Source: an uncultured Candidatus Saccharibacteria bacterium (GTDB taxonomy: Bacteria; Patescibacteriota; Minisyncoccia; Phycocordibacterales; UBA12088). From it: DNA of 64,000 bases. The DNA lies in NCBI GenBank assembly GCA_964562615.1, contig CAZLUD010000001.1:193072-257071 (forward strand). Reading direction: 5' to 3'. The notes under the pieces are model-generated. The model searched no databases and was not told the origin of the DNA. It saw only the letters and a program-made list of their open reading frames with translations. Positions 12,559 through 56,414 of this stretch are shown piece after piece. Position numbers and translations under genes: made by a program. Position 1 is the first letter of the stretch. Every line of letters begins with the position of its first letter.

Positions 12559-13074
12559 TTATTGGCGTAATGCTGCAGTGCTTTGTAGTGTGTATTCTGT
12601 TTGTGTTGTATTAGCAAACATAGCACCCTTACGAAACGTAGTGGTCACATTCACTAGCCCAAGTGATGATGACGTTGCAGTGAAGAGTGCCGAAAACTCA
12701 CGTACCACGGTCTCAGGAGAAGTAATGCGCTCAGGTGCTAACGCGCTCTCACTTCTCCATATACCTGACGAAACAAATTCGTATTGTACCGTAGTACCAT
12801 CTTTTTGCTCTAGCACTAGCGTGCTACTAGTACTTAATATAGGTGGATCTAGCACTCGCCACGCCTTTTGTATGTCCTGAGTAATGAGTCGTTGTACCCT
12901 ATCCGCATCTTGAAATAGTTGTGACGTTTCTCTGTGTCGTAATTCTGCACGCATCATGCCGTATATATATGAAGATACCGCTCCTAACACCACTGTCATG
13001 ATGGTGAGGTACAGCATTGTTTCTACTAACGTAAATCCGCGTTGTTTATTCATAGGTGATGTGTACTGATTCAA
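12559..13074 (-). CDS. Pseudopilin or minor pilin with prepilin-type N-terminal domain
   Basis: The N-terminal motif is QRGFTLVETMLYLTIMTVVLGAV. Confidence 0.65.
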   Translation of the reverse strand: MNQYTSPMNKQRGFTLVETMLYLTIMTVVLGAVSSYIYGMMRAELRHRETSQLFQDADRVQRLITQDIQKAWRVLDPPILSTSSTLVLEQKDGTTVQYEFVSSGIWRSESALAPERITSPETVVREFSALFTATSSSLGLVNVTTTFRKGAMFANTTQTEYTLQSTAALRQ

Positions 13075-15844: not shown

Positions 15845-16307
15845 TATGTGCCTCAGTCACCCCATAACGATTTATTACAATAGTTCGTGAACCAAGTGAG
15901 GGCGGTACCAAGGTAATGGATGTAGGGGCAAACTCACGCATACGCGCAGACGAAAATTGAACCTCCCGCGCACCAGTGAGTCCGTATCGAGAACTAAATG
16001 AAATAACCTCATCAGCATGAGGGATTCTCTGTGCGTATGACGGCCCCGCATAGAGGGTAGTACTTGTTGCAGCAACATATACCCCCCACTCCCCCTCTCG
16101 TTTGTTTGAATACGCATATGCACTTGCCCGAGAAATCTGCTCGCGTATTGCTCCCTCCGCAACCTTACTATCTACCCGCTCAAGATACGAAAGATAGACT
16201 GGAGCCATGATTGAAATCATAAGCGCAAAAATACTTACTGAAAGCAGTAATTCTAGGACGGTAAATCCTTTTTGTCTTACGGGTGTTTTACCAGTATGCA
16301 TAGCCAA
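15831..16307 (-). CDS. Pseudopilin (GspH/FimT-like) with prepilin-type N-terminus
   Basis: The N-terminal motif is QKGFTVLELLLSVSIFALMISIMAPV. Confidence 0.65.
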   Translation of the reverse strand: MAMHTGKTPVRQKGFTVLELLLSVSIFALMISIMAPVYLSYLERVDSKVAEGAIREQISRASAYAYSNKREGEWGVYVAATSTTLYAGPSYAQRIPHADEVISFSSRYGLTGAREVQFSSARMREFAPTSITLVPPSLGSRTIVINRYGVTEAHNEYE

Positions 16308-16313
16308 ATGTAA

Positions 16314-17660
16314 TTACAGCTCTCCCTCTCCGGTGCTTGATTCACGTATATCACTTCTTTTTATCCATCCTTCAACTCCAGGTTTAACTATCACCCGTAT
16401 CCAGCTAGGAGTTACCTCGACGACATCGTATCCCACACTCATCTGCGCTCGTTGCATCACCTCTGTTTGCTCATCAGCAACTGCATATACCGGCACATCG
16501 TCAAACAATGTGTAGGCGATATCGCCAATAGGATTACCCTCCGTTACTGGTGCATTTGTCTTTGCTCCCATGTTAAGCCCACTCGTAAGATTGTATACCG
16601 GCAATATCACCGCAAACGCCACCGCAACAACTCCCGCCCATATGATAATAAGAAGTACCGGCTCAATGATGACAGAAAGATTTTTTGTCGCGATATCCGT
16701 ACGCTCTTCATACACCCTTCCTATGTGCATAAAGGTATCTGACAAGGTGCCTGAATTTTCTCCTGCGATAATGAGTTGCCCCACACTAGAAGGAATCAAT
16801 CGTTCGTACGAAGGGTACTCATCAAAAGCAAGCCGAAAGGTGTATCCGTTTTCAATTTGTGTTTCAAGATACGAATAAAATTCTTTATATGAAATAAACG
16901 TTGTCGCATCTTTAAGCGCGCGGATTGCTTCAACGAGCGTAAGACCGCTTGCAAGGAGGGTACCCATGATAAATCCGAGCCGTGACACCTCTATTTGTCG
17001 TACTATATTTTTAATGACCGGCAATCGCTGCATTATCATTTGCCCGATAAAACGAGTCTTTGAATACACAAACACAAAAAACATCGTGAGCGCGATAGTG
17101 ACAATAAATAACGGTACTGCGATTGTTCCGTACTTACTCAAAAATGTTCCAAAATCAATAAGTACCCTCGTAAGAAACGGGAGATCAAGTTGTAGTTGTT
17201 CAAACACAGTAGCGAGTCGTGGCAGAATAAGCCACGATATGCCAATGCCAATAACTAGTGTCACCCCAAGCACAAAGACTGGGTACATCATCGCGCTCTT
17301 TAACTTTGATTTAAACATTCTGTTCTTGCTTTGCGTGGTGACGACAAATTTAAGGTTATGACTTAATCGTCCATTCTCTTCACCTATTTTGACTATCGCA
17401 ACGACATACTCAGGAAATAACCCAGTACGAACTAACGCTTTCCAAAACGGAACGCCATTTTCGATATCTTCTCGTAGTCCAACAATAATTCGCTGCATGG
17501 TGCTACTCTTCATTTCTTTTTGCACCGCATCAACAGCTTGAATTACCCCCAACCCTGACGCGGTAAGGACCGAAAGGTTTTCAATAAAATAATCACGCTC
17601 CTCGCGTATACCAAGAGTTTCAAAAGGAAGCCGTTTGTGTGAGTATTCTGTATTATTCAT
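16314..17660 (-). CDS. pilC: Type IV pilus assembly protein PilC (GspF-family platform protein) with a C-terminal SH3-like extension
   Basis: Two T2SS-F repeats and three TM segments are present. An extra ~80 aa at the C-terminus, VYAVADEQTEVMQRAQMSVGYDVVEVTPSWIRVIVKPGVEGWIKRSDI, resembles SH3b. Confidence 0.85.
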   Translation of the reverse strand: MNNTEYSHKRLPFETLGIREERDYFIENLSVLTASGLGVIQAVDAVQKEMKSSTMQRIIVGLREDIENGVPFWKALVRTGLFPEYVVAIVKIGEENGRLSHNLKFVVTTQSKNRMFKSKLKSAMMYPVFVLGVTLVIGIGISWLILPRLATVFEQLQLDLPFLTRVLIDFGTFLSKYGTIAVPLFIVTIALTMFFVFVYSKTRFIGQMIMQRLPVIKNIVRQIEVSRLGFIMGTLLASGLTLVEAIRALKDATTFISYKEFYSYLETQIENGYTFRLAFDEYPSYERLIPSSVGQLIIAGENSGTLSDTFMHIGRVYEERTDIATKNLSVIIEPVLLIIIWAGVVAVAFAVILPVYNLTSGLNMGAKTNAPVTEGNPIGDIAYTLFDDVPVYAVADEQTEVMQRAQMSVGYDVVEVTPSWIRVIVKPGVEGWIKRSDIRESSTGEGEL

Positions 17661-17663
17661 GAA

Positions 17664-19346
17664 TTATTCTGCGCGTGACGGTGGCACTACACGCACAAGC
17701 TCAGCTATGGTGGTTTCTCCATGAAGAACTTTTTCCATGCCATTTTCAAACATGGATTGCGTACCTAAGGTACGTGCAAGTGTCCACACCTCATGCGCAT
17801 TAGGTGATGCGACAATACACTCCTGCATCTCTTTTCCTACAGGGATAAGCTCAAACACTCCCGTTCTTCCTGAGAATCCGCTATGGTTACATGCCTCGCA
17901 TCCTTTACCCTCATACGCAACCAAACTTTTTCCTTGTATCATGTTCGCTGCTTGTGGTGAAAGATTGGACACCTCTTCTTTGCTTATTTCTTTACTATAT
18001 TTACACTGCTCGCATATCCTTCTCACAAGCCGCTGCCCGATAACCAGCTCAAGGGTGGACGAAAGTAGAAATGACTCGATACCCATATCAAGAAGACGAG
18101 GTATTGCGGTAGCGGCATCATTTGCGTGAAAGGTAGAAAATAGCAAGTGCCCAGTAAGTGCGGCGTTAACCGCAATTTCTGCTGTCTCCTTATCACGGAT
18201 CTCGCCCACCAAAATAATATCCGGGTCTTGTCTCACAATCGACCGAAGTCCTTCAGCAAATGAGAGGTTGGTCTGATTATTTACCGACATATGATTAACT
18301 CCCTCTATTTTGTATTCAACCGGATCCTCAATGGTTGCAATGTTTATTTCTGGATTATTTAAAATCTTTATGAGTGAGTACAACGTGGTTGTCTTTCCTG
18401 AACCCGTAGGACCAGTTACCAAAATCATGCCGAATGGCTTTTTTGCGGCAGCAAGAAGAATTGTTTGGTGTGCATCAGATAGCCCAATATCACCAAGAGT
18501 AAAGTTACGAATATATGACGAAAGCACTCTAATTACCACTTTTTCTCCATCGATGAGTGGCAATATTGAGACGCGCAAATCCACCGATATGGTTGGTGTT
18601 CTAAATCGTATAGCTCCATCTTGCGCGGCACGATGTTCATCAGTTCGTAACCGTCCAAGTACTTTTATTCTGTTTAACACCGTCTCATACAAATCTTTAG
18701 GCAACCTTCCCGCTTCCTTTAATATGCCATCAATACGAAAACGAATGATCACCTCACCCTCTCGCGGTTCAAAGTGAATATCCGATGCTCTAAATACGAG
18801 CGCCTCTTCAACTATCTCTTCAATAAGCGTAGGGGCGATGCGTCTGTCTTTGGTTTCTATGATACTTGCAAATCGGGTCGAGAGCGCCTTTCTGTATTCA
18901 ATCAATATTGCGTCTATATCAATAGGAAGCGAAAATGCGAGTACTATTTTTTTCTGGGGAAAAAGCTCCTTTAGTGCACCTAGAAGTCCTCGGGCTTTTG
19001 GACTGTCTGTAGCAACCACATACTCGGTATCTCTTTTTTCAAAGAGTACTACCCTATACTTAACGGCAATCTCTTCTGGAATTTCTACAATCTGATCATG
19101 TGGTGGCTTGTGTGAGTTAAGGTCTGCATACACCACAGAAAAGTGCTCTGAAATCGCTTGACCGAGTAAGTCATTTGTAATGAGGTTCTCCTTATAAAGA
19201 TACTCAAGCGCGTGGGTATCCTCTTTTTCTGCAAAATCAAGTGCTTTCTGCTTATCTTCTAGAGCGATATAGTTTCCAGAAACTAAAATCGAAAGCATTT
19301 TTTCATCAGCAACATGTGTTGCCTTTCCAGACTTTTGTAGTGCCAT
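17664..19346 (-). CDS. pilB: Type IV pilus assembly ATPase PilB (GspE family)
   Basis: An N-terminal T2SSE_N-like domain is followed by the Walker A motif VTGPTGSGKTTTLYS. The C-terminus has the tetracysteine motif CEQC...CEAC. Confidence 0.9.
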   Translation of the reverse strand: MALQKSGKATHVADEKMLSILVSGNYIALEDKQKALDFAEKEDTHALEYLYKENLITNDLLGQAISEHFSVVYADLNSHKPPHDQIVEIPEEIAVKYRVVLFEKRDTEYVVATDSPKARGLLGALKELFPQKKIVLAFSLPIDIDAILIEYRKALSTRFASIIETKDRRIAPTLIEEIVEEALVFRASDIHFEPREGEVIIRFRIDGILKEAGRLPKDLYETVLNRIKVLGRLRTDEHRAAQDGAIRFRTPTISVDLRVSILPLIDGEKVVIRVLSSYIRNFTLGDIGLSDAHQTILLAAAKKPFGMILVTGPTGSGKTTTLYSLIKILNNPEINIATIEDPVEYKIEGVNHMSVNNQTNLSFAEGLRSIVRQDPDIILVGEIRDKETAEIAVNAALTGHLLFSTFHANDAATAIPRLLDMGIESFLLSSTLELVIGQRLVRRICEQCKYSKEISKEEVSNLSPQAANMIQGKSLVAYEGKGCEACNHSGFSGRTGVFELIPVGKEMQECIVASPNAHEVWTLARTLGTQSMFENGMEKVLHGETTIAELVRVVPPSRAE

Positions 19347-27994: not shown

Positions 27995-28711
27995 TTAGTT
28001 TTGTGATTCTATTGTAGCTTGTAACACACTGAACCATTCCTTATACCCAAGGGCTGAGGGATGCAGTCCATCTGGTGCAAAGTAATGATCTGGATCGAGA
28101 ACAAACACATCTTTTTGAGGTACCGTATACAGATTTACGTATACACCACCTGCTTTTGCTATCGCTCCTTCAACCTTTTTGTGATATTCGAGCGTTCGTG
28201 CGTGATAGAGAGGGCGCACAAACCATGGAAAAAGTATACTTGCACCTATATCACCTGCGGTAAGTACGTAGACATCTTTTGATTGATCTTTTAGTACGCG
28301 TACTGTAGTAGCTATTCTTTCTATCGCCTCATCTATAGCAACAAACCGAATAATGTCATTGGCGCCAATCTGAATGAGTACCACATCATACTGTGTACGC
28401 ATTGCCATAGCGCGCTGCCTTGCTAAATCACTGGTGAGCGCTCCAGATACTGCATAGTTTTCAACATGGGTGGCACCAAGATATTCTGCAAGATACCCTG
28501 GTACTGACTCTCCTCTAGTACTCCCTACCCCTACTGCTGTACTGTCTCCTAGCACAAGAATACTCACCCCCGTGTCAGTGTCGGCATGTTTTTCAAATCG
28601 AGTCGCCGTCTCACTTAACCCCTTTGCAATATGTATCTTGTAGGCAAATCGACACCCCTCATACAAGAGGTACAGACCAACCACCACCAGCACATACAGT
28701 AGAATTTTCAT
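27995..28711 (-). CDS. SGNH/GDSL-family hydrolase
   Basis: Contains the GDS block VLGDSTAVGVG, followed by QIGANDII and DGLHPSALGY (DxxH). Confidence 0.7.
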   Translation of the reverse strand: MKILLYVLVVVGLYLLYEGCRFAYKIHIAKGLSETATRFEKHADTDTGVSILVLGDSTAVGVGSTRGESVPGYLAEYLGATHVENYAVSGALTSDLARQRAMAMRTQYDVVLIQIGANDIIRFVAIDEAIERIATTVRVLKDQSKDVYVLTAGDIGASILFPWFVRPLYHARTLEYHKKVEGAIAKAGGVYVNLYTVPQKDVFVLDPDHYFAPDGLHPSALGYKEWFSVLQATIESQN

Positions 28712-29001
28712 TTTTGAATAGGAGTATTTTTTATAAGCAACAATTTTTCTGGTTTTGATAACCTCTTTATATACGCCTCTCGCTTTGATGCGACTGATCT
28801 ATTTTCACATGCTTCAGCATATACAAGCCGTACTACTCCTTTTGCTCTCGTGTACCTCCCCCCTACACCATCTTTATGTTCTTGAAGGCGACGAGCAGTA
28901 TCGGTGGTAATTCCTGTATACAAAGACCCATCCTTACACAAAAGGATATACGCATAAAACATACTCATACGATAAGTATACCCTGTATTATTCCTCTTCA
29001 C
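28708..29001 (-). CDS. GIY-YIG domain protein (UPF0213/YhbQ-like)
   Basis: FYAYILLCKDGSLYTGITTDTARRLQEHK is a GIY-YIG motif. Confidence 0.7.
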   Translation of the reverse strand: MKRNNTGYTYRMSMFYAYILLCKDGSLYTGITTDTARRLQEHKDGVGGRYTRAKGVVRLVYAEACENRSVASKREAYIKRLSKPEKLLLIKNTPIQK

Positions 29002-32000
29002 CGCCTACTGATTCTGTGGGTGTTTCTTCAAGTACCACCACTACTCTTGTACTTGTTGCGGTGTTTCCACTTGGATCACTAGCTACATATAGTATAGAGT
29101 GCGATCCAGCTACTGATGTATCAATAGCAACCGAGGATACTTCGCTGTTGTTGTAGTAGGTGCGGAGTATTGCGACGCCACTATCGTCTATCGCTACAGC
29201 GCCAAGGTCATTGTATGCTTCGCCAACAAAGAGTTCGGCAGGGTTGTTTCCAAAGACAGTAAGCTCTGGTGGGGTGGTGTCAGTATTGGTGGTGTCTTCA
29301 TCTACCGTCGTGTCATCTGTATTCCCTTTTGCAACCTCTGCTTCAAGCAATTTGATACGCGCTTCAAGTGCTTCTATTTTATTATCTTGTACACTAAAGC
29401 GACTCATAACTGTTGTATACAACTCTTGTATAGCCTTTACTACCACCGCACCAAGCTGGTCATACTTGACTGTTAGTGGTTCTCCTTCGGTATCTAGTAC
29501 GATAAGACGAGGATCAATGAGTTCAACTTCTTCAGCAATAAATCCAAGCTGTGCGCCTGGCACACCGATTGATTCATTATAAAGATAAGACACAGGGCGA
29601 AGCGCAAGAACAGTATCAAGGCTGGTAGCGAGTGTTTCTATATCATGCTTAAAGCGATTTGAAGAAACAGTACATGCTGCCCCGACGTTATAAAGTACTT
29701 CATTGCTAGCCGAGAGACACAATGCCCCGGCACCTGTAGAAAGACTTTTTAACGATACCGTACCCTCAACAGAAAGTTTTCGCCATGGAGTGGTGGTGCC
29801 GATGCCGACGTTGCCGGTATTTGTGATCCGCACTCGCTCTGAACCACTCGTGTACAAATTCAGGCCATAATACCCAGAAAGGTGCAGTCCTGGGTTGCCA
29901 AAGTCCCCATTTGCGATGGTCATCCCGTATGCGGCAAGGGTTGAGCCATTCGCACTAAACGTTTGAGAATTGGGAAGATAGCCGATCATGCTGCCATTTG
30001 CAACCGTAAGACCAATATTTCCAGTTACTTCCAACTTGCTCCCTGGATTTGTCGTTCCAATGCCGACGTTGCCCGCATTTATGTACGACGCTGTTCCTCC
30101 GTTCGTACTGAAAAGGATGTCCACGTTTCCTGACGTGTCGCGCATCCGATACCGGCTGTCCCCGCCGCCATCGAACCCGAAATCGTACTTCAGCGTCCCG
30201 CCGCTGTTGTTGATGTACACGGCGTCCGTCCCGCTTGGCGTGATCTCGAGACGAGCACCTGGATTGCTGTCGCCGATGCCGACGTTGCCGTTGAATATTC
30301 CAGTCCCCGCAGTTGTTGTCGCATATCCTGAATCATCAGCAAGTCTGAAATCTATTCCTGCTCCGTTACGCTTGATTGCAGGAAACGCAGATGTCGTTCC
30401 ACCAAACTGGAGTCTACCAAAGTCAGTATTGGCATTGTTAAATAATGTCATTATTCCATCGGTAGCAGTGAAAACAATCTTCGTCCCTGTGGAGCTAGAC
30501 CTAAGTCCCTGCCCGGTAATCACATTAATTCCTGTGGGTTGGAAAGAAATACCATTTGTGCCTTGGACTGAAACCAGAATGACTCCGCTACTGCTATTAC
30601 TCCAAGAAAAACCAGTACTAGGTTGACCTGAAAAAGCCATCGATGGAGATGCGGTTGAACCATTCCCCACATAGAGAGTCGTGGAAGATGCAATACCCTG
30701 CACATCCAGTTTCGACTGGGGATTCGTCGTCCCTATGCCGACGTTGCCGTTGTCATTAACTACAAACCTTGTGACATTAGAGGAGTCTGAAATTGCGAGG
30801 GCTTTCCCTGTGCCAGTTCCTGTACCCTTCACAGAAAGTTTTGCCCATGGTGTCGTCGTCCCAATACCCACAGATCCAGAGTTTGTGATGTGCAAACGTG
30901 TTTGTTCAACACCGCTTGTAAGCGTCTTTAGTGATACAGTACCAAGATTATTACGTCCTGATACAAGACTCAAATCATATCCTACATAGCCATACTGAAT
31001 ATACGCAGGTGCATATCCTGCGCTTCCATGATTATCAAGTATTAATTTAGCTGGGGTTGAGCTAGTACGTTCAATAACAATATCGCCATCTCTAATAGCA
31101 AGCTTTGCATACGGTGAGGTAGTGCCAATACCGACATTCCCATTATCATTGATCACAAACCTTGTGACATTTGACGAGTCAGAAACTGCAAACGCTTTTC
31201 CGGTACCAGTACCACTCCCCTTTATTGAAAGCTTTGCCCATGGGGAGGTAGTGCCGATGCCAATGGAGCCAGTGCCAGTAATACGCATACGCTCAATACC
31301 GGTACCAGTGCCGCCTGTACCAAAAATGATAGGCGCAACCGCCTGTGTAACTATTGCAAGTCCCCCAGTATCTCCCGAGCCAGTTTGCAAGGTACCTGAA
31401 AGAGGAATGTCGAGAAGATTCGTATTTCCCGTTGTTGAGTTGTTATGACTAAGAGCAAAAAATTGAGTAGACGAATTTTCTCCCACCGCTACCAGACGAG
31501 AAAATCCGGAGGAGAGAGTCGATTCGGAACGGATAACAGAATTTGCTGTACTGGAGAAGGTGTGGAGGAGAGTACTTGGACTACTCGTCCCCACCCCCAC
31601 ATTCCCCGTCGCCCTATACACATTGCCTCCAGAAAGCGTCCAGTTCCCCACCGTGGCACCAGCAACAAGCGCACCATTCCAGTAGAGGGAGGAGGCATTG
31701 TTGTATAGGCGGTTGGTGGTAGCAAGAGGAGTGGATGAGGCAAGGAAGAGTGAACCAGTCACTGAGGCATCTCCAGAAACTGAGAGCGTGGTGAAGGGAG
31801 AGGTGGTTCCTAGTCCTAGTCTGTTGTTCGTCTCATCAAAGAAGAAACTCGCATTGTCTTGTGATACCTGTCCTAGGGAGTTAGCAAAGAGGACAGAGCC
31901 GGAGGTAAAGCCAGAGAGCGTGGTGGTACCCACTATAGTGAGGTTCGTGATGGTAGGAGAAGAGAGAGACACAGAAGCAAGAGAGCCACCGGTCACGGTG

Positions 32001-32560
32001 GGGTTTGAGATGGTTGGTGATGGGATAGTGACTCCAGTCGGAAGATTGTCTATCTTCTGGGTGAGTCCCCAGACGGGAGTCGAGGGTGGCTGGTATGAGG
32101 AGTAGGTGCCATAGCCGGTGAAGGTAGTGGCGGTTTGTGTGGGGAGAGTGTTTAGTTTTGTGGTGAGGAGAGCAAGAGATGATTCGAGAAAGGAGATGCG
32201 ATTCAAGAGGTCGGTGTTGTTTGCTTCTATGGTGATGTACTTAGTCACCGGGTCAGTGACACGCTCTATGACTCTCTCCGTGATGATGGTAGAGGTGGCG
32301 GTATCAGTCTCCTCTTGTGGAGGGGTGGTGGGTGTTTCTTCTTGTGTGGGAGGTTGGTATACAACAGCAGTGTGTTGCCCTTCTTTGAGTGATGAGAGGG
32401 TGGTAGATAGGTTGTCGGGAGATGACGATATAAAGGCAAACACGCCGAGTGCCACAGATGCAATTGCCACGAGTAGTGGTGCCATAGATACCTTGAAGTA
32501 TACCGCTTTTTTGGGTGTTTTTGGTGTGGGGTGTGGGGTGTGGGGGTGAAAAATAAGCAA
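28988..32560 (-). CDS. Giant cell-surface protein (1190 aa) with Thr-rich linker, tail-fibre-like internal repeats, a peptidase-S74-type intramolecular chaperone domain, and a DUF5011/Ig-like C-terminus
   Basis: N-terminal signal anchor present. Repeated GNVGIGTTSPWAKLSIKGSGTGTGKAFAVSDSSNVTRFVINDNGNVGIGTT units occur. The C-terminal SSNRFKHDIETL...RPVSYLYNESIGVPGAQLGFIAEEVE...KIEALEARIKLLE resembles the tail-fibre/endosialidase chaperone domain. The end PPELTVFGNNPAELFVGEAYNDLGAVAID...YVASDPSGNTATSTRVVVV fits DUF5011. Confidence 0.75.
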   Translation of the reverse strand: MLIFHPHTPHPTPKTPKKAVYFKVSMAPLLVAIASVALGVFAFISSSPDNLSTTLSSLKEGQHTAVVYQPPTQEETPTTPPQEETDTATSTIITERVIERVTDPVTKYITIEANNTDLLNRISFLESSLALLTTKLNTLPTQTATTFTGYGTYSSYQPPSTPVWGLTQKIDNLPTGVTIPSPTISNPTVTGGSLASVSLSSPTITNLTIVGTTTLSGFTSGSVLFANSLGQVSQDNASFFFDETNNRLGLGTTSPFTTLSVSGDASVTGSLFLASSTPLATTNRLYNNASSLYWNGALVAGATVGNWTLSGGNVYRATGNVGVGTSSPSTLLHTFSSTANSVIRSESTLSSGFSRLVAVGENSSTQFFALSHNNSTTGNTNLLDIPLSGTLQTGSGDTGGLAIVTQAVAPIIFGTGGTGTGIERMRITGTGSIGIGTTSPWAKLSIKGSGTGTGKAFAVSDSSNVTRFVINDNGNVGIGTTSPYAKLAIRDGDIVIERTSSTPAKLILDNHGSAGYAPAYIQYGYVGYDLSLVSGRNNLGTVSLKTLTSGVEQTRLHITNSGSVGIGTTTPWAKLSVKGTGTGTGKALAISDSSNVTRFVVNDNGNVGIGTTNPQSKLDVQGIASSTTLYVGNGSTASPSMAFSGQPSTGFSWSNSSSGVILVSVQGTNGISFQPTGINVITGQGLRSSSTGTKIVFTATDGIMTLFNNANTDFGRLQFGGTTSAFPAIKRNGAGIDFRLADDSGYATTTAGTGIFNGNVGIGDSNPGARLEITPSGTDAVYINNSGGTLKYDFGFDGGGDSRYRMRDTSGNVDILFSTNGGTASYINAGNVGIGTTNPGSKLEVTGNIGLTVANGSMIGYLPNSQTFSANGSTLAAYGMTIANGDFGNPGLHLSGYYGLNLYTSGSERVRITNTGNVGIGTTTPWRKLSVEGTVSLKSLSTGAGALCLSASNEVLYNVGAACTVSSNRFKHDIETLATSLDTVLALRPVSYLYNESIGVPGAQLGFIAEEVELIDPRLIVLDTEGEPLTVKYDQLGAVVVKAIQELYTTVMSRFSVQDNKIEALEARIKLLEAEVAKGNTDDTTVDEDTTNTDTTPPELTVFGNNPAELFVGEAYNDLGAVAIDDSGVAILRTYYNNSEVSSVAIDTSVAGSHSILYVASDPSGNTATSTRVVVVLEETPTESVGGEEE

Positions 32561-35503: not shown

Positions 35504-36384
35504 TTAGCATAACAACGCTCTCTTGCTTTTCATACTTTCTACAATGTGGGTAGGCGCCCATGGTCTGCGCAACTGCAGTGCACCAAAGCTCACTGCATGA
35601 GCTCCCATCTTAAAAAGCGTACCAACATCTGCCTCACTCATAGCACTTGGTGCTATGACCGGAAGGGATCCTTGCGCTACAAGCTCCCCCACTGCCATCC
35701 AATTTCTATGCTGTGCTGGTGCACCCGATACTCCACCACCCCCACCACCAACACGCATCTCTAGTGCAGCAAGCGGTGTACGACTATGTGGAAATACCAT
35801 ATTCCACGGTACGCTGTTAAGTGATATCGCCCCAACAACACCACGCAACGCTGCAGCAATACTTATACACCCCTGGTCAACTGAAACTTTAATGATAATT
35901 GGGTGTTGTGATGCCACCTTCACCGCTCTCACCGAAGAAAGAATGTTTTGTATAGATTCTCTCGCCTCCCCACATTTGGACAAGAAAGATTGACCTCAAT
36001 GCCAACAAGAGGAATCCTGTTCAGCATTCTAGCCATCTCAACCAATTCCTCTTCTTTTCCATGTATTGAGACAACGATATTGTTGTCTCTGAAATTGATT
36101 GTTGGTGCAATCTTATTTAGCCAATAGATAATACCGGGATTGGTTAGCCCAATCTTATTCACCATACCGCCATCAATAAAGCGGACACTCCCTAAAGGAT
36201 TCCACCAGGTAAAGTTTCCTTTCAAGGGTTTAAGTGTCAACGTCTTTGTGACAATGGTGAATAGGTTTGGCTTTATGGCCCCACACCAAACAAGCGGCCG
36301 CTGGAAAAACCATCCATCTCCATACCCAAACGAGCTACTAGAAAGGACATGCTCAAAAGAGTGCCCGTTTGAAAGTGTAATCAT
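35504..36384 (-). pseudogene. pyrD: Dihydroorotate dehydrogenase-like gene split across two overlapping frames (35929..36384 and 35504..35983), frameshifted
   Basis: The upstream ORF has GLTNPGIIYWLN...VNLSCPNVG (DHODH/DPD family). The downstream ORF continues with KVSVDQ...GAISLNSV...GAHAVSFGALQL. The two overlap by 55 nt in different frames. This is either a genuine disabling mutation or an assembly error. Confidence 0.5.
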
Positions 36385-36467
36385 GACACACTCCTCTTCT
36401 GGGTTACCACATCTGCATCCGAAACAAGCCTACCTGCGCCACGCCATTCGTCAATATCTATTTATGT

Positions 36468-36719
36468 TTACTTCTTTTTCCACCGTGGGGCGAAGCCAGC
36501 TATAAACGCAAAAAAGTGCGCTTTGATTCTGCTTTCTCCCCTCGCAACAATAGCCTTAACCATTTCCTTTTTAAACTCATTTAGATCAGTCCCTTCGTAG
36601 CAGAGCTTTCCATTGTTAAAACAATAACTACAATACTGCACTGACTCGCGCTTGTCACCGAGTGGATCTTTGTTAAACGGCATCAAACAACTTTCACACA
36701 TTGCATTATCTGTTTTCAT
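36468..36719 (-). CDS. Small zinc-ribbon domain protein
   Basis: Two cysteine pairs CESC and CSYC are spaced ~20 aa apart. Confidence 0.5.
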   Translation of the reverse strand: MKTDNAMCESCLMPFNKDPLGDKRESVQYCSYCFNNGKLCYEGTDLNEFKKEMVKAIVARGESRIKAHFFAFIAGFAPRWKKK

Positions 36720-36795
36720 GTTTTTATATCCTCATTATACACAAAACTCGTAGCGGGTAGATGATGCCCTTTTCAACTAACACACTTAAGCAAGA

Positions 36796-37188
36796 TTATT
36801 TTTTATCCTTCATAATAGCAACGCTCTTCTTAACCAATTTTTTTATTAGACCTAATGGAAGCTTGTCTTTTTCAGAAAAACTGATGATTGATTTTGTTGT
36901 TTTGTACTTTGATACTTCTTTCGCATAATCTTCTAATGCCGGTGGTCTCACATGCAATCTTACGAATGGCTTTTTATAGCTAAACCAGGCAAACATGCCA
37001 TCATAATCGTATCCACCATTGTATGAGTATCCGGGCATATCAAAATAATCTGTCCTTTCTTGTGCGGATGGTGCAGCTTTTTTAATTTCAGTCCGTATGG
37101 CATTCAGATGTAATTGCGCTTCTTTTGGGCACAATGCAATATACTCCTCAACTGTTTTTTCCTTTTTGTTTGGTTTAATACGTAACAT
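36796..37188 (-). CDS. DUF1801 (YdhG-like) domain protein
   Basis: Size and the pattern APSAQERTDYFDMPGYSYNG...FAWFSYKKPFVRLHV are typical of DUF1801. Confidence 0.55.
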   Translation of the reverse strand: MLRIKPNKKEKTVEEYIALCPKEAQLHLNAIRTEIKKAAPSAQERTDYFDMPGYSYNGGYDYDGMFAWFSYKKPFVRLHVRPPALEDYAKEVSKYKTTKSIISFSEKDKLPLGLIKKLVKKSVAIMKDKK

Positions 37189-37227
37189 ATCTTTATGTTA
37201 CTAGGAGCCGAGCATACATCAAACTGG

Positions 37228-37250
37228 CTGCCAGACTTGGATTCTAACTA
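37228..37250. repeat. Degenerate direct repeat of the tRNA-Gln 3' end (putative distal att-like boundary of an AT-rich island)
   Basis: gctgccagacttggattctaacta matches gctgccggacttggactcgaacca (41617..41640) at 20 of 24 positions. This is my own manual alignment. Confidence 0.35.
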
Positions 37251-39035
37251 TCTCGGTCTAGAACCAGAATATGCCTTAAAATATAGGTTCGCGTCTAGAG
37301 AAGTCCATATCTCTTCTGGTTTTTCCTCATCAATAAAAATTCTCATCCACAACTCTAGACTCAAAAGAATCCATATAATTTCTGAATTATCCTTTTCTTG
37401 TCTTAGATGCTCACATATACACTCACGTATATTGGAATAATTTAAGTAATCTCTTTCTATTCTTGGATGCATGAAAAACTGAAGATACCTCCCTAGTCCC
37501 TGATCGTCCCTTAACCATTCAGAAATGGGTAAACCAAACCCGCATTTTTTACGAAAAACAACATTGGCTGGTAAATATTTACTTGCGAGATTTTTTAAAA
37601 TAATCTTACTTTCTATATCGCTGACCTTTTGTGAATCTAACAATCTAAGAGCAAAATTGAGCAAACGAGGATCTAAAAATGGAAAACGATTTTCGACCGT
37701 AGACGCCATACCCATCTTGTCTTGTCTTAAGAGTAGAGAAGGGAGGAATGTCTGTAGATCATAATTCCCTAATTTCTGCATACTACTTTTTCCTTTCACA
37801 CCATCAACGATTAATTCTCTATGCTCAATTTTGGTCTTATCTATCTTAAAGAATCGTTGCACATCTACTTCAGTAGAAAAACTATTAGAATAAAATATTG
37901 ATTTTCTGTCATTTTTTGGCAAAATCTTTCTATATCTATTGTAACCTCCAAATAACTCATCCGCTCCCTCACCACTCAACAAGACTTTCACGTAACCTGA
38001 AGCAGTGTTACTTAACAGCATTAACGGCACTGTGTTAGGGTATGCAATTGGTTCATCCAGATGATAGGTGGCAATAGGGTAATTTTTACAAAAATAATTT
38101 TGATCAAAGACAATCTCGTGGTGTGTAGTGCCTAACAATTTTGAAACTTCTCTTGAGTATTCAAACTCATTCCATTTTGAATCATTGAGTCCAATGGAAA
38201 AAGAATGAATATCTTTTTGATTTAAAACTTTTTTTGCCAGTGAACTGATTAGACTTGAATCTACTCCACCACTAAGCTGAAATCCAACTGGAACATCTGA
38301 TAAAACATGCTCTGAAACACTCTTTGTTAACAATTCTTCAATGTCGGACTCAGCAACATCGACATACTCAGAGTACCTACTCTGAACCAGAGAATCGCTC
38401 TCAAGGTCATATTCAACTATTGCCGATGGCGCTAATTTATATACACTTTTTATCATAGTTTCTGAGCCTGAGATGACTCTAAATACACAGTACTCAAATA
38501 GATGTTCTTCATTTAACAAAAAATCGAATCCTGGTAAATGTCTGAAGGTTTTTAACTCTGATGACCAGGCGAACCAGTCTTCAGTATTTAAATAATAGAG
38601 TGGCTTAATACCAAACCTGTCAACGGAAAGAGTTACCTTATTAAATGTCGGTTCATAGAAACTAACTGCAAACATTCCTCTAATTAATTCAAAAACTTTT
38701 TTATCATGCTTTTTATAGGCCAATAGCAGAGTTTCTGTATCGGAATCAGTCTTATACATAAGTGGATTCTCCCTCATCTCAAGATGATTATATACTTCTC
38801 CATTATAAGAAATTACCAAGTTACCATCTTCGGTCGCCAGTGGCTGATTGGCTTTTTCTGACAAATCAAGTATTGCCAATCGATTGTGCCCAATAACAAC
38901 TCCATTGTTTTCATATATTCCAGATGCATCTCGTCCTCTATATTTTATTTCGTCCAACATCCTATTTGCGAGAGTTTTTCTCTCATCCACCGATAATTGC
39001 TTTTTCTTATCGACTAATCCTATTATTCCGCACAT
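37248..39035 (-). CDS. Asparagine synthase (glutamine-hydrolysing) family protein
   Basis: N-terminus MCGIIGL is the class-II amidotransferase Cys2. The PP-loop SGGVDSS lies in the synthetase domain. Codon usage is AT-rich. Confidence 0.85.
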   Translation of the reverse strand: MCGIIGLVDKKKQLSVDERKTLANRMLDEIKYRGRDASGIYENNGVVIGHNRLAILDLSEKANQPLATEDGNLVISYNGEVYNHLEMRENPLMYKTDSDTETLLLAYKKHDKKVFELIRGMFAVSFYEPTFNKVTLSVDRFGIKPLYYLNTEDWFAWSSELKTFRHLPGFDFLLNEEHLFEYCVFRVISGSETMIKSVYKLAPSAIVEYDLESDSLVQSRYSEYVDVAESDIEELLTKSVSEHVLSDVPVGFQLSGGVDSSLISSLAKKVLNQKDIHSFSIGLNDSKWNEFEYSREVSKLLGTTHHEIVFDQNYFCKNYPIATYHLDEPIAYPNTVPLMLLSNTASGYVKVLLSGEGADELFGGYNRYRKILPKNDRKSIFYSNSFSTEVDVQRFFKIDKTKIEHRELIVDGVKGKSSMQKLGNYDLQTFLPSLLLRQDKMGMASTVENRFPFLDPRLLNFALRLLDSQKVSDIESKIILKNLASKYLPANVVFRKKCGFGLPISEWLRDDQGLGRYLQFFMHPRIERDYLNYSNIRECICEHLRQEKDNSEIIWILLSLELWMRIFIDEEKPEEIWTSLDANLYFKAYSGSRPR

Positions 39036-40056
39036 ATTTTTTGTTGATATAATTAGAAACCGTTACAGCAATTTCCCTTTCCAGATCCGGTGATTCTTGA
39101 ACTTTTTCCCATTCGCCGTTTAAAGATTGCTTATAGTAAAATTTTGATTTTTCAATCGTGTATTGCCCCAAACAAAGGCATTGAAACTCAAACAAGAAGA
39201 ACTCGCCATCCTTATGTCCGATATCAAGAGACACAAATGGAGTATTAAGTTTCTTGTAAACAACCTCTGCATAATCAAGAAGCCCAATCGGAAGCTCTGC
39301 GTTAAAGTCTAAATTACCACTACCACTTGCGGTAAAGTTATTCTTTCTATTCTTACGAAATACTACATAGTACTTTTCTCCGTAAGCCAGTATTCTAAAG
39401 TCACCATCCAAGGCGCTGATAAAGTTCTGGACAATAAACTTCTTTCTATTATTAGACATTGGAGTAAATGGTTTCCCTGTCTTTATTTTTGAGAGAAACA
39501 GCTTTAAATTATCGAAGGTAAATGATCTTGATATCTTGTACGGCACAATCTTTTTATCCTGGTATATCTTAAGAAGACCGACATCTCGGCTTCTAGTGCC
39601 CGAACCAGGCTTTATAACAAAAATATCATTATCATTTGAATAACCAGACTGCACATATTCCTCATATGTACCAAATGATTTTGAATGAATGTTCTGTATC
39701 TCTCGTATTCCTAATACATCTCTCAACATCTCCATAAAAACCTTGTTGTGGTGAGCTCTAAAATATTCAAAATCTGGAATCAAGCGTGCTCCTTGTGTTT
39801 TCAATCCAAGTAAAATGTCTTCAATATAATCTTTGTAGGAAAGTCCCGGATCTTCTGACGATTGGTAGAGAACCCATTTGTTCTTGTAATCCTCTGCCCT
39901 CAAATCTATTTCGTAAAAGTGTTTTACAATCAGATTAAAACCATGGTCACAGAAATAATTTTTTAATTTATCGACATCAACAGAAGCACCTCTATATCTG
40001 GTAGAGAAGTAGAACTGATTTCTATAATCCAGAAGAATTATGATGTCACTATTCAT
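39007..40056 (-). CDS. ATP-grasp domain protein (RimK/TupA-like)
   Basis: Contains VIKPGSGTRSRDVGLL and FIVQNFISALDGDFRILAYGEKYYVVFRKNR, followed by FVSLDIGHKDGEFFLFEFQ. The start overlaps the asnB-like stop. Confidence 0.55.
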   Translation of the reverse strand: MNSDIIILLDYRNQFYFSTRYRGASVDVDKLKNYFCDHGFNLIVKHFYEIDLRAEDYKNKWVLYQSSEDPGLSYKDYIEDILLGLKTQGARLIPDFEYFRAHHNKVFMEMLRDVLGIREIQNIHSKSFGTYEEYVQSGYSNDNDIFVIKPGSGTRSRDVGLLKIYQDKKIVPYKISRSFTFDNLKLFLSKIKTGKPFTPMSNNRKKFIVQNFISALDGDFRILAYGEKYYVVFRKNRKNNFTASGSGNLDFNAELPIGLLDYAEVVYKKLNTPFVSLDIGHKDGEFFLFEFQCLCLGQYTIEKSKFYYKQSLNGEWEKVQESPDLEREIAVTVSNYINKKYVRNNRISR

Positions 40057-55802: not shown

Positions 55803-56414
55803 TTATGATTCTAGTTCTGCTTCACGTTTTGCTTTTGCTGCATTAAAGTCATACATAATTCTTGAAACGGTCATTGTCTTAGCACCAGAAGGTACATCCC
55901 ACGTCAAAATAACCTCAATAAGATTTTCATCCAAGTTACCATTTGGTTGCGTGACGCGAATTGTTCGCGTGTATTCAGATACCCCCCAACTACTGTTATA
56001 TCCATAAAACGATCCGGTAGAATCCTTTCTCATTGGCGGGCATGCCGAGGTGCATCTTGATATTGCATTAGCAGGCGTTGCCGCAGGTGCGACGGTGGTG
56101 TCCATGATACATCCATAGGTGCCTCCGCAGTTGGTACGGGCGTACGCAAAGCCGGCTGTTCCGTTTTTGGTGTCGTTGTCTCGTATATTAGTGAGGAGCT
56201 CCATGGCATCCTGCCCTAAAAAGAATGCAGTGATTTGCTCACGCGTATACGCAGCAGAATTAAGTGATCGTTGTACGAGCGCCATCGGACCAACCAAAGA
56301 AACAATAAGTACCGCAACCGCCACCAATGTTTCAATAAGGGTGAACCCAGCTTGCGTATCACCGTTTACACGATTATGTGGGTGTTGCTTCATCATGCTA
56401 GAACTCGGTCTCAT
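55803..56414 (-). CDS. Pseudopilin with prepilin-type N-terminus
   Basis: The N-terminal motif is QAGFTLIETLVAVAVLIVSLVGPMAL. Confidence 0.65.
   Translation of the reverse strand: MRPSSSMMKQHPHNRVNGDTQAGFTLIETLVAVAVLIVSLVGPMALVQRSLNSAAYTREQITAFFLGQDAMELLTNIRDNDTKNGTAGFAYARTNCGGTYGCIMDTTVAPAATPANAISRCTSACPPMRKDSTGSFYGYNSSWGVSEYTRTIRVTQPNGNLDENLIEVILTWDVPSGAKTMTVSRIMYDFNAAKAKREAELES

What the first reader, a model, noticed from the sequence alone, without database searches (positions are those of the whole stretch)
28988..32560. 1190-aa surface protein built from tail-fibre-like repeats, an S74-type intramolecular chaperone and a DUF5011-like C-terminus, with ~400-nt internal DNA repeats
The architecture mirrors phage tail-fibre/tailspike proteins that trimerise using a C-terminal auto-cleaving chaperone (motif SSNRFKHDIETL…). 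Here it is fused to a signal anchor and an Ig-like domain, consistent with a host- or prey-contact fibre on the cell surface. The internal near-identical DNA repeats (about 30700-31300) could mediate length variation.
Basis: partly seen in the sequence, partly recalled or inferred. Interest (0 to 1): 0.6.

Follow-up and report, generated by a model that had tools for sequence, protein, structure and literature searches.

The report
Membrane-anchored tail-fibre-like adhesin of a CPR bacterium
A tiny, probably host-dependent bacterium carries in its own chromosome a 1190-residue surface fibre built like a phage tail fibre, closest to the prey-grabbing fibres of Bdellovibrio, and close relatives carry a completely different fibre at the same spot, which makes it a candidate host-recognition molecule.

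Summary
The ORF (28988-32560, minus strand, 1190 aa) is real. Its S74 chaperone-protease domain (966-1018) and C-terminal Ig-like domain (PF16403, the family the databases label DUF5011; 1101-1176) both score above Pfam's cut-offs. The Ser966/Lys971 pair is present and S-x4-K is kept in all 77 homologues examined.

The "near-identical ~400-nt DNA repeats" are not confirmed. Two modules lie 393 nt apart, but they are 66-72% identical in DNA, with random third codon positions, and the longest exact repeat in the gene is 19 nt.

The gene sits in a cellular chromosome of a Parcubacteria/Kaiserbacteria-like CPR bacterium, not in a prophage. The closest characterised relatives are the Bdellovibrio MAT (mosaic adhesive trimer) fibres, by both sequence and fold.

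Three things differ from those and from phage fibres:
- It has an N-terminal membrane anchor.
- A coiled coil plus an Ig domain lies downstream of the predicted self-cleavage site. This order holds in 29/29 homologues with both domains and in 0/80 viral loci.
- A close relative with the same gene order has an unrelated fibre (about 27% identical, at least 1483 aa, no Ig) at this position.

Best reading: a trimeric, self-processing adhesin used for contact with a host or a surface. The function is inferred, not shown.

The parts
28988..32560 (-). Whole fibre gene, 1190 codons plus stop, TTG start
   Evidence: ORF list. GGAGG lies 7 nt upstream of the TTG. The Lys-rich segment before the hydrophobic helix exists only with the TTG start.
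32523..32545 (-). 7-nt tandem repeat (CCACACC on the gene strand, 3.3 copies) in codons 5-12, upstream of the alternative ATG (Met26)
   Evidence: Tandem Repeats Finder, 100% matches. Its function was not tested.
32429..32485 (-). Residues 26-44: the single hydrophobic helix, read as a signal anchor (N-terminus in, fibre out)
   Evidence: Highest 19-residue Kyte-Doolittle window in the protein, mean 2.46. K14, K17, K18 and K23 precede it. No cleavage-site predictor was available.
32261..32383 (-). Residues 60-100: Pro/Thr/Glu-rich linker
   Evidence: Read directly from the sequence.
32141..32248 (-). Residues about 105-140: neck with a 3-4 hydrophobic spacing (LLNRISFLESSLALLTTKLNTL), read as a coiled coil. 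Residues 121-160 are 100% identical to homologue P0001.
   Evidence: Sequence; sliding identity to P0001. The coiled coil is an inference.
29726..32053 (-). Residues about 170-945: shaft of beta-helix modules, each ending in a G-N-V-G-I-G-T-T-x-P-x-x-K-L loop motif (nine copies)
   Evidence: PHROGs tail-fibre hits. phmmer hits to Bdellovibrio fibre crystal structures: 8OND E=1.9e-11, plus 8OL4, 8OML, 8OJN. An AF2 model of residues 405-640 (pLDDT 73.5) has its 13 best PDB matches all among Bdellovibrio MAT fibres. Motif count.
31082..31291 (-). Module copy A (residues 424-493)
   Evidence: Paired with copy B: 71% amino-acid identity, 66% nucleotide identity, 33% third-position identity.
30689..30898 (-). 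Module copy B (residues 555-624)
   Evidence: Same comparison as copy A.
29666..29725 (-). Residues 946-965: hairpin holding the only two cysteines of the protein (C948, C963). It would be the distal end of the fibre after cleavage.
   Evidence: Cys positions. A Cys pair within 35 residues upstream of the site occurs in 53 of 77 homologues. The disulfide is inferred.
29648..29665 (-). Codons for S966-S-N-R-F-K971: the predicted autocleavage site and Ser/Lys dyad
   Evidence: The Pfam match starts at 966 = model position 1. The profile alignment puts 'SSerfK' on 'SDERLK' of 8JOV and on the MYRF and 6F45 sites. S and K are invariant in alignment A2. S-x4-K is present in all 77 homologues (eight by eye).
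29327..29665 (-). Residues 966-1078: S74 intramolecular chaperone/protease domain with its long C-terminal helix (1033-1078)
   Evidence: Pfam. Profile hits to 8JOV 2e-13, 6F45 3e-12, MYRF 7DC3 8e-9. AF2 pLDDT is 81-95 in the core. Foldseek hit to the MYRF ICA domain at E=1.8e-4, target-normalised TM-score 0.54.
29033..29260 (-). Residues 1101-1176: Ig-like domain (PF16403), downstream of the cleavage site
   Evidence: Pfam. AF2 pLDDT about 95. Foldseek hits to 2KPN Big_3, SraP, BT2262 and PKD domains. Profile hits to 7JS4 and 2KPN.
28991..29032 (-). Residues 1177-1190: acidic tail with no sorting signal and no second hydrophobic segment
   Evidence: Sequence; hydropathy scan.

Best explanation
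This is a chromosomal gene of a Parcubacteria/Kaiserbacteria-like CPR bacterium. It encodes a cell-surface fibre of the same kind as the Bdellovibrio MAT fibres and phage tail fibres.

Proposed mechanism, with shown and inferred steps marked:
1. The protein is exported with its N-terminal helix (residues 26-44) left in the membrane as an anchor. The anchor is shown as a sequence feature; the topology is inferred.
2. Three chains assemble from the C-terminus. The S74 domain (966-1078) acts as an intramolecular chaperone and nucleates an intertwined beta-helix shaft (about 170-945) and a coiled-coil neck (about 105-140). This is inferred from homology to solved trimers.
3. Ser966, activated by Lys971, cuts the chain before Ser966. 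This is inferred from the conserved dyad; in the homologous Bdellovibrio fibre Bd3182, S782A abolishes cleavage (PMC10769870).
4. Cleavage leaves an anchored fibre of roughly 900 extracellular residues. Scaling from the Bd3182 model suggests a length of tens of nanometres (rough extrapolation). Its tip would be a Cys948-Cys963 hairpin. Cleavage also frees, or leaves as a removable cap, a 225-residue fragment of chaperone, coiled coil and Ig-like domain.
5. The fibre binds a surface structure of another cell, most plausibly the host of this presumably episymbiotic bacterium. This is inferred from the relatives' function, from cassette-like replacement of the fibre between close relatives, and from carbohydrate-active domains fused into homologues.
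For: Domains and dyad:
- S74 and Ig domains are above Pfam cut-offs.
- The dyad and the GFIAEEV motif are conserved, and S and K are invariant.
- The S74 region resembles the MYRF ICA domain in fold, and the Ig fold is modelled at pLDDT about 95.

Shaft:
- It is homologous to Bdellovibrio MAT crystal structures by sequence (8OND E=1.9e-11).
- It also matches them by fold: the top 13 PDB matches are all MAT fibres.
- S74 self-cleavage and a role in prey handling are shown experimentally for MAT fibres (PMC10769870).

Cellular, not phage:
- Neighbours are TyrRS, MatE, GDSL hydrolase, META, CTP synthase, LigA, GatA, type IV pilus genes and tRNAs.
- Homologues lie next to housekeeping genes, and one sits inside the ribosomal protein operon.
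- The organism is placed by CTP synthase, 70-73% identical to Kaiserbacteria and Parcubacteria sequences.

Family:
- At least 1231 homologues were found. Most of those that carry a name are from Patescibacteria.

Diversification:
- Against P0001, residues 121-160 and 281-320 are 100% identical, while residues 321-920 are 10-40% identical.
- In the syntenic locus L089 the flanking proteins are 74-92% identical, but the fibre is about 27% identical, at least 1483 aa, and has no Ig domain.
- Homologues carry inserted GDSL esterase, polysaccharide deacetylase, pectate-lyase-type beta-helix, Kelch and LVIVD domains.
Against: - No experiment or expression data exist for this protein or for any CPR member. 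Trimerisation could not be modelled because only monomer predictions were available, and the shaft model has low TM-scores (0.15-0.36) to the solved trimers.
- The site reads S-S-x-x-x-K, not the canonical S-D-x-x-x-K. The effect of the D-to-S change is unknown, although it is the majority form in this subfamily.
- A conserved Ig domain placed after the cleavage site is odd if that fragment is merely discarded.
- The host, the ligand and even the episymbiotic lifestyle of this organism are assumed from what is known of CPR bacteria in general.
- The neighbouring GDSL hydrolase is not specifically related to the GDSL domains fused into homologues. That functional link is therefore weak.
Confidence: 0.6

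Rival explanations
1. The fibre is anchored and trimeric as above, but the C-terminal fragment is the working end. Either cleavage does not happen, or the cut fragment stays bound, so the Ig-like domain forms the distal adhesive tip.
For: The Ig domain follows S74 in 29 of 29 homologues that have both, sometimes in two copies, so it is under selection. Similar Ig-like domains occur in adhesins and glycan-binding proteins such as SraP, BT2262 and ZmpB-type proteins. The second residue of the site is S, not D. Phage work suggests chaperones can persist as transient caps (PMC10579305).
Against: The Ser/Lys dyad is kept in all 77 homologues, which argues for active cleavage. In every characterised S74 protein cited in PMC10769870 the domain is released. 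The syntenic relative and many CPR homologues lack the Ig domain altogether, so it is dispensable for a working fibre.
Confidence: 0.2
2. It is a general envelope or surface-coat fibre used for spacing, attachment to particles or biofilm, or shielding against phages. It has no specific role in recognising a host cell.
For: The Ig domain also resembles domains of S-layer proteins (SbsB, SlpX, Deinococcus HPI). The family is very large, and fibre genes can occur in tandem (a fibre-like fragment lies upstream in L087). There is no direct evidence of a host.
Against: Wholesale replacement of the shaft or fibre between close relatives while flanking genes stay 74-92% identical is the pattern of receptor-binding proteins under diversifying pressure. 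The nearest characterised homologues act in cell-to-cell recognition.
Confidence: 0.15
3. It is a phage tail-fibre gene: part of a prophage or a remnant of one, not used by the cell.
For: PHROGs tail-fibre hits. In viral contigs, 233 candidate stretches encode relatives of the beta-helix plus S74 part.
Against: There are no phage genes anywhere nearby. An N-terminal membrane anchor is useless on a virion. The same gene order occurs in a related genome. A homologue sits inside the ribosomal protein operon. None of 80 viral loci has the Ig extension, and viral genes end a median of 98 residues after the Ser, against 225 here.
Confidence: 0.04

Closest known systems
Bdellovibrio bacteriovorus MAT (mosaic adhesive trimer) fibres, S74 subgroup, e.g. 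Bd3182 (Caulton et al. 2024, PMC10769870; PDB 8OJN, 8ONB, 8ONC, 8OND, 8OML, 8OL4)
   Same: - Chromosomally encoded, about 1000 residues, exported.
- The shaft is made of the same beta-helix modules with the same G-N-V-G-I-G-T-x-x-P-x-x-K-L loop.
- It has a C-terminal S74 domain with a Ser/Lys site.
- It is mosaic, with conserved base regions and swapped distal parts.
   Different: [quoted passage not shown] Here there is a membrane anchor, a PT-rich linker and a coiled-coil neck in a CPR bacterium.
- The paper describes the 13 S74-type MAT fibres as terminating in the S74 domain. Here S74 is followed by a coiled coil and an Ig-like domain.
- The site is SSxxxK, not SDxxxK.
- The host organism and any biological role are untested.
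Phage tail fibres and tailspikes with a C-terminal intramolecular chaperone (K1F endosialidase 3GW6, T5 pb1 4UW8, S16 gp37 6F45, 8JOV)
   Same: S74 domain with a Ser/Lys dyad and the GxIAxEV motif, preceded by a trimeric beta-helical fibre. PHROGs tail-fibre families match.
   Different: Phage proteins attach to a virion through their N-terminus, whereas this one has a membrane anchor. Viral relatives stop about 98 residues after the Ser and none of 80 has the Ig domain. The genomic context is cellular.
MYRF (myelin regulatory factor) ICA domain, PDB 7DC3
   Same: Homologous self-cleaving trimerisation domain (profile E=7.8e-9; Foldseek E=1.8e-4). As in MYRF, the domain is internal and further domains follow it, so cleavage yields two functional-looking halves.
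   Different: The topology is mirrored. In MYRF the C-terminal half stays in the membrane and the N-terminal trimer is released. Here the N-terminal half is anchored and the C-terminal half would be released. The query has no DNA-binding domain.
'Tail fiber domain-containing protein' and 'DUF5011 domain-containing protein' entries of Patescibacteria in public databases
   Same: Same family and same architecture; at least 1231 relatives, many with PF13884 plus PF16403.
   Different: These are automatic annotations. No paper in the searchable library describes them in CPR bacteria. The nearest sequence is only 39% identical over 66% of the query.

Membership tests
Peptidase_S74 / intramolecular chaperone auto-processing domain | Profile match above the curated threshold | tested here: met
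   PF13884 at 36.3 bits against a cut-off of 22, residues 966-1018. Family profile hits to 8JOV 2e-13, 6F45 3e-12 and MYRF 8e-9.
Peptidase_S74 / intramolecular chaperone auto-processing domain | Catalytic Ser and Lys five residues apart at the start of the domain (SDxxxK) | tested here: met
   S966 and K971 align to the S and K of solved relatives. Both are invariant in alignment A2, and S-x4-K occurs in 77 of 77 homologues. Position 2 is S instead of D.
Peptidase_S74 / intramolecular chaperone auto-processing domain | Fold of the chaperone domain | tested here: met
   AF2 core pLDDT 81-95. Foldseek hit to the MYRF ICA domain 7DC3 at E=1.8e-4, target-normalised TM-score 0.54. This is a monomer model only.
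Peptidase_S74 / intramolecular chaperone auto-processing domain | Actual self-cleavage and chaperone-dependent trimerisation | not testable with these tools
   Needs protein expression with an S966A control.
Bdellovibrio-type MAT fibres | Beta-helix shaft modules with the capping-loop motif | tested here: met
   phmmer hit to 8OND at 1.9e-11, with alignments through ...ERMRIxxxGNVGIGTxxPxxKL.... Nine motif copies. The 13 best fold matches are all MAT structures.
Bdellovibrio-type MAT fibres | [quoted passage not shown] | not tested
The query instead shows a long hydrophobic anchor, a PT-rich linker and a heptad-like neck, so this feature may not be met.
Bdellovibrio-type MAT fibres | S74-type members terminate in the S74 domain | tested here: not met
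   About 110 further residues, including an Ig-like domain, follow the S74 helix.
Bdellovibrio-type MAT fibres | Trimeric surface fibre acting in recognition of another cell | not testable with these tools
   Inferred only.
Bact_surface_Ig-like (PF16403, labelled DUF5011 in source annotations) | Profile match above threshold and an Ig-like beta-sandwich fold | tested here: met
   35.3 bits against a cut-off of 27. pLDDT about 95. Matches to 2KPN, SraP and BT2262.
Phage-encoded tail fibre (prophage gene) | Located among phage structural genes | tested here: not met
   Neighbours are housekeeping and envelope genes. The gene order is shared with a related genome.

The most novel reading that the evidence does not exclude
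This locus is the host-range determinant of an episymbiotic Parcubacterium. It would be a membrane-tethered receptor-binding fibre that close relatives exchange as a cassette at a fixed chromosomal site to switch hosts. S74 self-cleavage would 'arm' it by shedding an Ig-tipped trimeric cap, so one precursor would give two extracellular products.
Probability: 0.25. Interest if true: 0.75.

Novelty: new variant of a known kind. Interest (0 to 1): 0.5.

Why it matters
How CPR/Patescibacteria find and hold on to their hosts is largely unknown outside a few cultured Saccharibacteria, where type IV pili and unnamed surface adhesins are implicated (PMC11665869). This protein belongs to a very large, unstudied CPR family that is homologous to the only bacterial fibres of this kind with solved structures and a shown role in cell-to-cell recognition.

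If these fibres are receptor-binding proteins, their variable shafts and tips could be used to predict or test host pairings of uncultured CPR bacteria. The tips could be expressed as probes. The post-chaperone Ig module would be a new twist on S74 biology.

The self-cleavage part is cheap to test in E. coli.

Tried and rejected
- Near-identical DNA repeats and repeat-mediated length variation: rejected.
- Prophage origin: rejected on context.
- Finding the window's own fibre or more strain variants:
  - The exact protein is not on record with either start codon.
  - P0001's contig is not retrievable.
  - The genome-contig scan gave only distant loci.
  - A metagenome DNA pattern for the 5' end gave nothing.
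  - A metagenome search with the conserved stalk gave only distant hits.
- Copy-number variation of the 7-nt repeat could therefore not be checked.
- Logan contigs with the identical 3' end stop exactly at the last GNVGIG-coding motif. This is an assembly break at a repeat and says nothing about heterogeneity.
- A conserved partner gene upstream: none found.
- A functional link to the neighbouring GDSL hydrolase through homologues with fused GDSL domains: there is no specific similarity, so the link is weak.
- An N-terminal DNA-binding domain in homologues: only one weak HTH_17 hit below threshold. My guess that P0001 starts with a LexA-like domain got no Pfam support.
- NCBIfam has no model for the fibre or its neighbours.
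- No convincing promoter or terminator flanks the gene.
- No paralogue exists in the window.
- Literature: no paper in the library links S74 or tail-fibre-like proteins to CPR bacteria.


Full report

The six-frame ORF list gives one ORF at 28988..32560 on the minus strand. It is 1190 aa with a TTG start. A GGAGG lies 7 nt upstream of that TTG.

With this start, a Lys-rich stretch (K14, K17, K18, K23) precedes the only strongly hydrophobic segment of the protein, residues 26-44, which has a mean Kyte-Doolittle hydropathy of 2.46. The alternative ATG (Met26) would leave the helix without a charged N-region, so I keep the TTG start.

Domain and motif results:
- Pfam Peptidase_S74 matches 966-1018 at 36.3 bits (cut-off 22).
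- Pfam Bact_surface_Ig-like (PF16403), the family whose members the databases label "DUF5011 domain-containing", matches 1101-1176 at 35.3 bits (cut-off 27).
- PHROGs gives tail-fibre families, best E=1.6e-26.

All protein-level parts of the observation are therefore confirmed.

The DNA-repeat part is not confirmed:
- The only long internal pair is 30726-30898 versus 31119-31291. The copies are 393 nt apart and 72% identical over 173 nt.
- Over the full 70-codon modules (residues 424-493 versus 555-624), amino-acid identity is 71%, nucleotide identity is 66%, and third-position identity is 33%. Only 17 of the 50 conserved residues use the same codon.
- The longest exact direct repeat anywhere in the gene is 19 nt. 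It is the stretch that encodes G-N-V-G-I-G.
- Tandem Repeats Finder sees no array in the shaft.

These are old duplications maintained by selection on the protein. They are not near-identical DNA that would readily recombine.

**2. What organism and what context?**

The window is a piece of a cellular chromosome:
- It holds five tRNA genes.
- It encodes TyrRS, a MatE transporter, CTP synthase, NAD-dependent DNA ligase, GatA-type amidase, sulfate permease and PilB/PilC-type pilus genes.
- The fibre gene is flanked downstream by a small GIY-YIG gene, a membrane-anchored GDSL/SGNH hydrolase, a META-domain protein and TyrRS. Upstream lie two small membrane proteins without family matches, then OmdA and EVE domain proteins.
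- No phage gene is present.

The window's CTP synthase is 70-73% identical to sequences labelled Candidatus Kaiserbacteria and Parcubacteria. The housekeeping proteins of the window are on record on a 418,823-bp NCBI contig.

The organism is therefore a Parcubacteria-type member of the CPR/Patescibacteria. That group is generally thought to live attached to other cells; this is background knowledge (e.g. PMC11665869) and is not shown for this organism.

**3. Anatomy of the protein**

From N to C:
- 1-25: short Lys-rich cytoplasmic stub.
- 26-44: membrane helix.
- 60-100: Pro/Thr/Glu-rich linker.
- About 105-140: a neck with 3-4 hydrophobic spacing (LLNRISFLESSLALLTTKLNTL), which I read as a coiled coil.
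- About 170-945: shaft.
- 946-965: short hairpin with the only two cysteines of the protein, C948 and C963.
- 966-1078: the S74 domain, including a long helix at 1033-1078.
- 1079-1100: acidic linker.
- 1101-1176: the Ig-like domain.
- 1177-1190: acidic tail without any sorting signal.

The shaft contains nine copies of the loop motif [VIL]G[VIL]G[TD]xxP, usually as G-N-V-G-I-G-T-T-x-P-x-x-K-L.

**4. Closest solved relatives of the shaft**

A plain sequence search of the PDB with the whole protein does not return phage proteins first. It returns the Bdellovibrio bacteriovorus fibre structures: 8OND (Bd2133) at E=1.9e-11, then 8OL4/8ONF, 8OML and 8OJN. The alignments run through the same ...ERMRI..GNVGIGT..P..KL.V modules.

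An AlphaFold2 monomer model of residues 405-640, built on 24 homologous segments, reached a mean pLDDT of 73.5. Its 13 best PDB matches were all Bdellovibrio fibre chains (Bd1334, Bd3182, Bd2133, Bd2439), with E-values down to 2.4e-6. TM-scores are low (0.15-0.36), as expected when a single chain of an intertwined trimer is modelled alone. The fold evidence therefore supports the sequence homology but does not stand alone.

These proteins are the MAT ("mosaic adhesive trimer") family of Caulton et al. 2024 (PMC10769870):
- There are 21 paralogues in strain HD100.
- Thirteen end in an S74 domain with an SDxxxK site.
- Bd3182 cleaves itself at S782, and S782A blocks the cleavage.
- The fibres are on the predator surface and take part in prey handling.

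**5. The S74 domain and its catalytic pair**

A profile of the C-terminal 291 residues plus 21 homologous fragments (alignment A2) hits three relevant solved proteins:
- the phage fibre 8JOV, E=2.1e-13;
- phage S16 gp37, 6F45, E=3e-12;
- the MYRF ICA domain, 7DC3, E=7.8e-9.

In those alignments the query's S966-S-N-R-F-K971 lies on the S-D-x-x-x-K of the solved proteins, and the GFIAEEV motif lies on GFIAQQ / GLIAQEV / GVIAQEV. S966 and K971 are two of only six invariant columns in A2.

Among the 120 best homologues, 77 have a detectable S74 domain. A strict pattern found the site in 69 of them. The other eight, read by eye, also have S-x4-K.

The AF2 model of residues 900-1190 has pLDDT 81-95 in the S74 core and matches the MYRF ICA domain (Foldseek E=1.8e-4, target-normalised TM-score 0.54).

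One deviation remains. The second residue is Ser rather than the canonical Asp. This SS-x-RFK form goes together with the upstream Cys pair in 53 of 77 homologues, so it defines a subfamily rather than a decayed site.

**6. The Ig-like domain sits on the "wrong" side of the cut**

In every one of the 29 homologues where my search found both domains, the Ig-like domain (one or two copies) lies C-terminal to S74.

A scan of viral contigs found 233 candidate stretches that encode relatives of the beta-helix plus S74 region. In the 80 loci kept:
- none has the Ig domain;
- in the 63 with a detectable S74 match, the gene ends a median of 98 residues after the catalytic Ser (range 70-156), against 225 residues here.

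The paper likewise describes the Bdellovibrio S74-type fibres as terminating in the S74 domain.

If S74 works here as in all characterised cases, the Ig domain is not part of the mature anchored fibre. It leaves with the chaperone as a 225-residue fragment, presumably trimeric.

I considered three readings, none of them tested:
- The fragment is simply shed.
- The fragment stays on the tip as a removable cap. This idea has been raised for phage fibre chaperones (PMC10579305).
- Cleavage is incomplete and the Ig domain acts as the tip.

The only other well-known S74 protein with domains after the cleavage module is eukaryotic MYRF. There the topology is the mirror image: the C-terminal half stays in the membrane and the N-terminal half is released.

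**7. A large cellular family, diversifying like receptor-binding proteins**

The homology search returned at least 1231 proteins at E<=1e-5 among the 8000 candidates scored. Those with names are mostly Parcubacteria, Nomurabacteria, Kaiserbacteria, Paceibacterota, Campbellbacteria, Niyogibacteria and "Patescibacteria group". A few are from Omnitrophota, Elusimicrobiota and Margulisiibacteriota.

Genomic contexts of three homologues are cellular:
- P0010 lies inside the ribosomal protein operon, between L5 and S8.
- P0008 lies next to a GIY-YIG gene and GAPDH.
- P0013 lies between GMP synthase and a Laminin_G_3 protein.

Homologues carry extra domains inserted in the shaft: GDSL esterase, polysaccharide deacetylase, pectate-lyase-type beta-helix, Kelch, LVIVD, and in one case an intein. 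Several of these are carbohydrate-active, as in phage tailspikes.

Two comparisons show how the gene evolves:
- **P0001, the best hit.** Identity to the query is 100% in residues 121-160 and 281-320. It falls to 10-40% across residues 321-920 and rises again to about 50-60% around S74 and the Ig domain.
- **L089, the same chromosomal locus in a related genome** (GCA_964409035.1). The gene order is the same (fibre, GIY-YIG, GDSL, META, TyrRS, MatE and onward). The flanking proteins are 74-92% identical to those of the window. The fibre there is at least 1483 aa, only about 27% identical, has an S74 site (PSLRETK) and has no Ig domain. That contig ends inside the gene.

It arises by replacement of modules or of the whole gene at a fixed site, not by recombination between the internal repeats.

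**8. Most likely mechanism**

*Shown by sequence, profile or fold:* an anchor-like helix; a MAT/tail-fibre-type shaft; an intact S74 domain with its Ser/Lys pair; an Ig-like domain after it; a cellular context; cassette-like diversity between relatives.

*Inferred:*
- N-in/C-out topology.
- Trimer formation nucleated by S74 from the C-terminal end.
- Cleavage before Ser966.
- A C948-C963 disulfide at the new tip.
- A fibre length of some tens of nanometres. This is scaled from the roughly 550 Å model of the 922-residue Bd3182 in PMC10769870 and is a rough extrapolation.
- Binding to a surface structure of another cell, most plausibly the host.

I put about 0.85 on the structural and processing part. 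I put about 0.55-0.6 on the host-contact function.

**9. Rivals**

- The Ig domain is the working tip (cleavage absent, or the fragment is retained): 0.2.
- A general coat or attachment fibre without host specificity: 0.15.
- A prophage or phage remnant: 0.04.

Evidence for and against each is in the rival section.

**10. Novelty and verdict**

The protein is a member of a known kind: S74-processed trimeric fibres. Among cellular examples, the Bdellovibrio MAT fibres are the closest.

It fails one MAT feature that I could test, since it does not terminate in S74. It probably differs in the N-terminal region as well. I could not test the conserved ~130-aa N-terminal domain because no full-length MAT sequence was available. 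I therefore file it as a new variant and not as a plain member.

Databases already label such CPR proteins "tail fiber domain-containing" or "DUF5011 domain-containing". I found no paper in the searchable library that analyses them in CPR bacteria. That library is incomplete, so this is absence of evidence only.

Interest is moderate, 0.5. The architecture is not shocking to a specialist. It does give a concrete and cheaply testable candidate for host recognition in a group where this is an open question.

Noticed in passing
window 32523-32545: A perfect 7-nt tandem repeat (GGTGTGG on the + strand, 3.3 copies) lies in codons 5-12 of the fibre ORF, between the TTG start and the alternative ATG (Met26). 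Gaining or losing a unit would shift the frame, so it could act as a slipped-strand on/off switch.
   Followed up: partly
window 28708-28968; L089 4473-4733; L087 5258-5530: A small GIY-YIG gene (86-90 aa) lies directly downstream of the fibre gene here, in the syntenic relative, and in an unrelated fibre locus (43% identical to the window's copy). It might be involved in exchange of the fibre cassette, or it might be coincidence.
   Followed up: partly
L089 2-4453 (GCA_964409035.1 contig CAYPBQ010000001.1): At the same locus in a related genome there is a different fibre: at least 1483 aa, about 27% identical, with S74 but without the Ig domain. The flanking proteins are 74-92% identical to the window's. 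The contig ends inside the gene.
   Followed up: yes
L004 1-823 and L005 (Logan contigs): One short-read assembly contig (L004) that is identical to the window ends exactly at the last GNVGIG-coding motif of the fibre gene. Another (L005) breaks in the GDSL gene. The fibre gene is an assembly breakpoint.
   Followed up: yes
L086 7001-11326 (Parcubacteria GCA_026004575.1): An S74+Ig fibre gene (P0010, 1441 aa), together with a 302-aa unknown gene, is inserted in the ribosomal protein operon between the L5 and S8 genes.
   Followed up: no
homologue P0046: This fibre homologue is interrupted by an intein that carries a NYN domain (precomputed Pfam PF14890 and PF01936).
   Followed up: no
homologues P0022, P0037, P0077, P0096, P0061: A conserved cytoplasmic segment of about 60 aa (kkFIStKqAaklsGYtsDYvgQLcRgGKI) precedes the membrane helix. 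It looks like an HTH_17 DNA-binding domain only weakly (E=7e-4, below cut-off, in P0022; a precomputed hit exists for P0061). The query lacks it. A DNA-binding domain tethered to a surface fibre would be worth a separate look.
   Followed up: partly
many homologues, between the S74 helix and the Ig domain: A conserved C-x3-C module (e.g. ELCIGNTCINENQLIALL) is present in most S74+Ig homologues. It is absent from the query, P0004 and P0038.
   Followed up: no
window 36001-40000: GC content drops to 0.35-0.38, against about 0.43-0.45 elsewhere. The region holds an asparagine-synthase-type gene and a 349-aa ORF with no Pfam match. It may be an acquired island.
   Followed up: no
window 13046-19346 and 56398-57999: PilB and PilC type IV pilus genes lie next to a 932-aa ORF with weak LVIVD repeats. 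A 533-aa protein with an N-terminal methylation (pilin-type) motif lies elsewhere. These are other likely surface and attachment components of the same organism.
   Followed up: no
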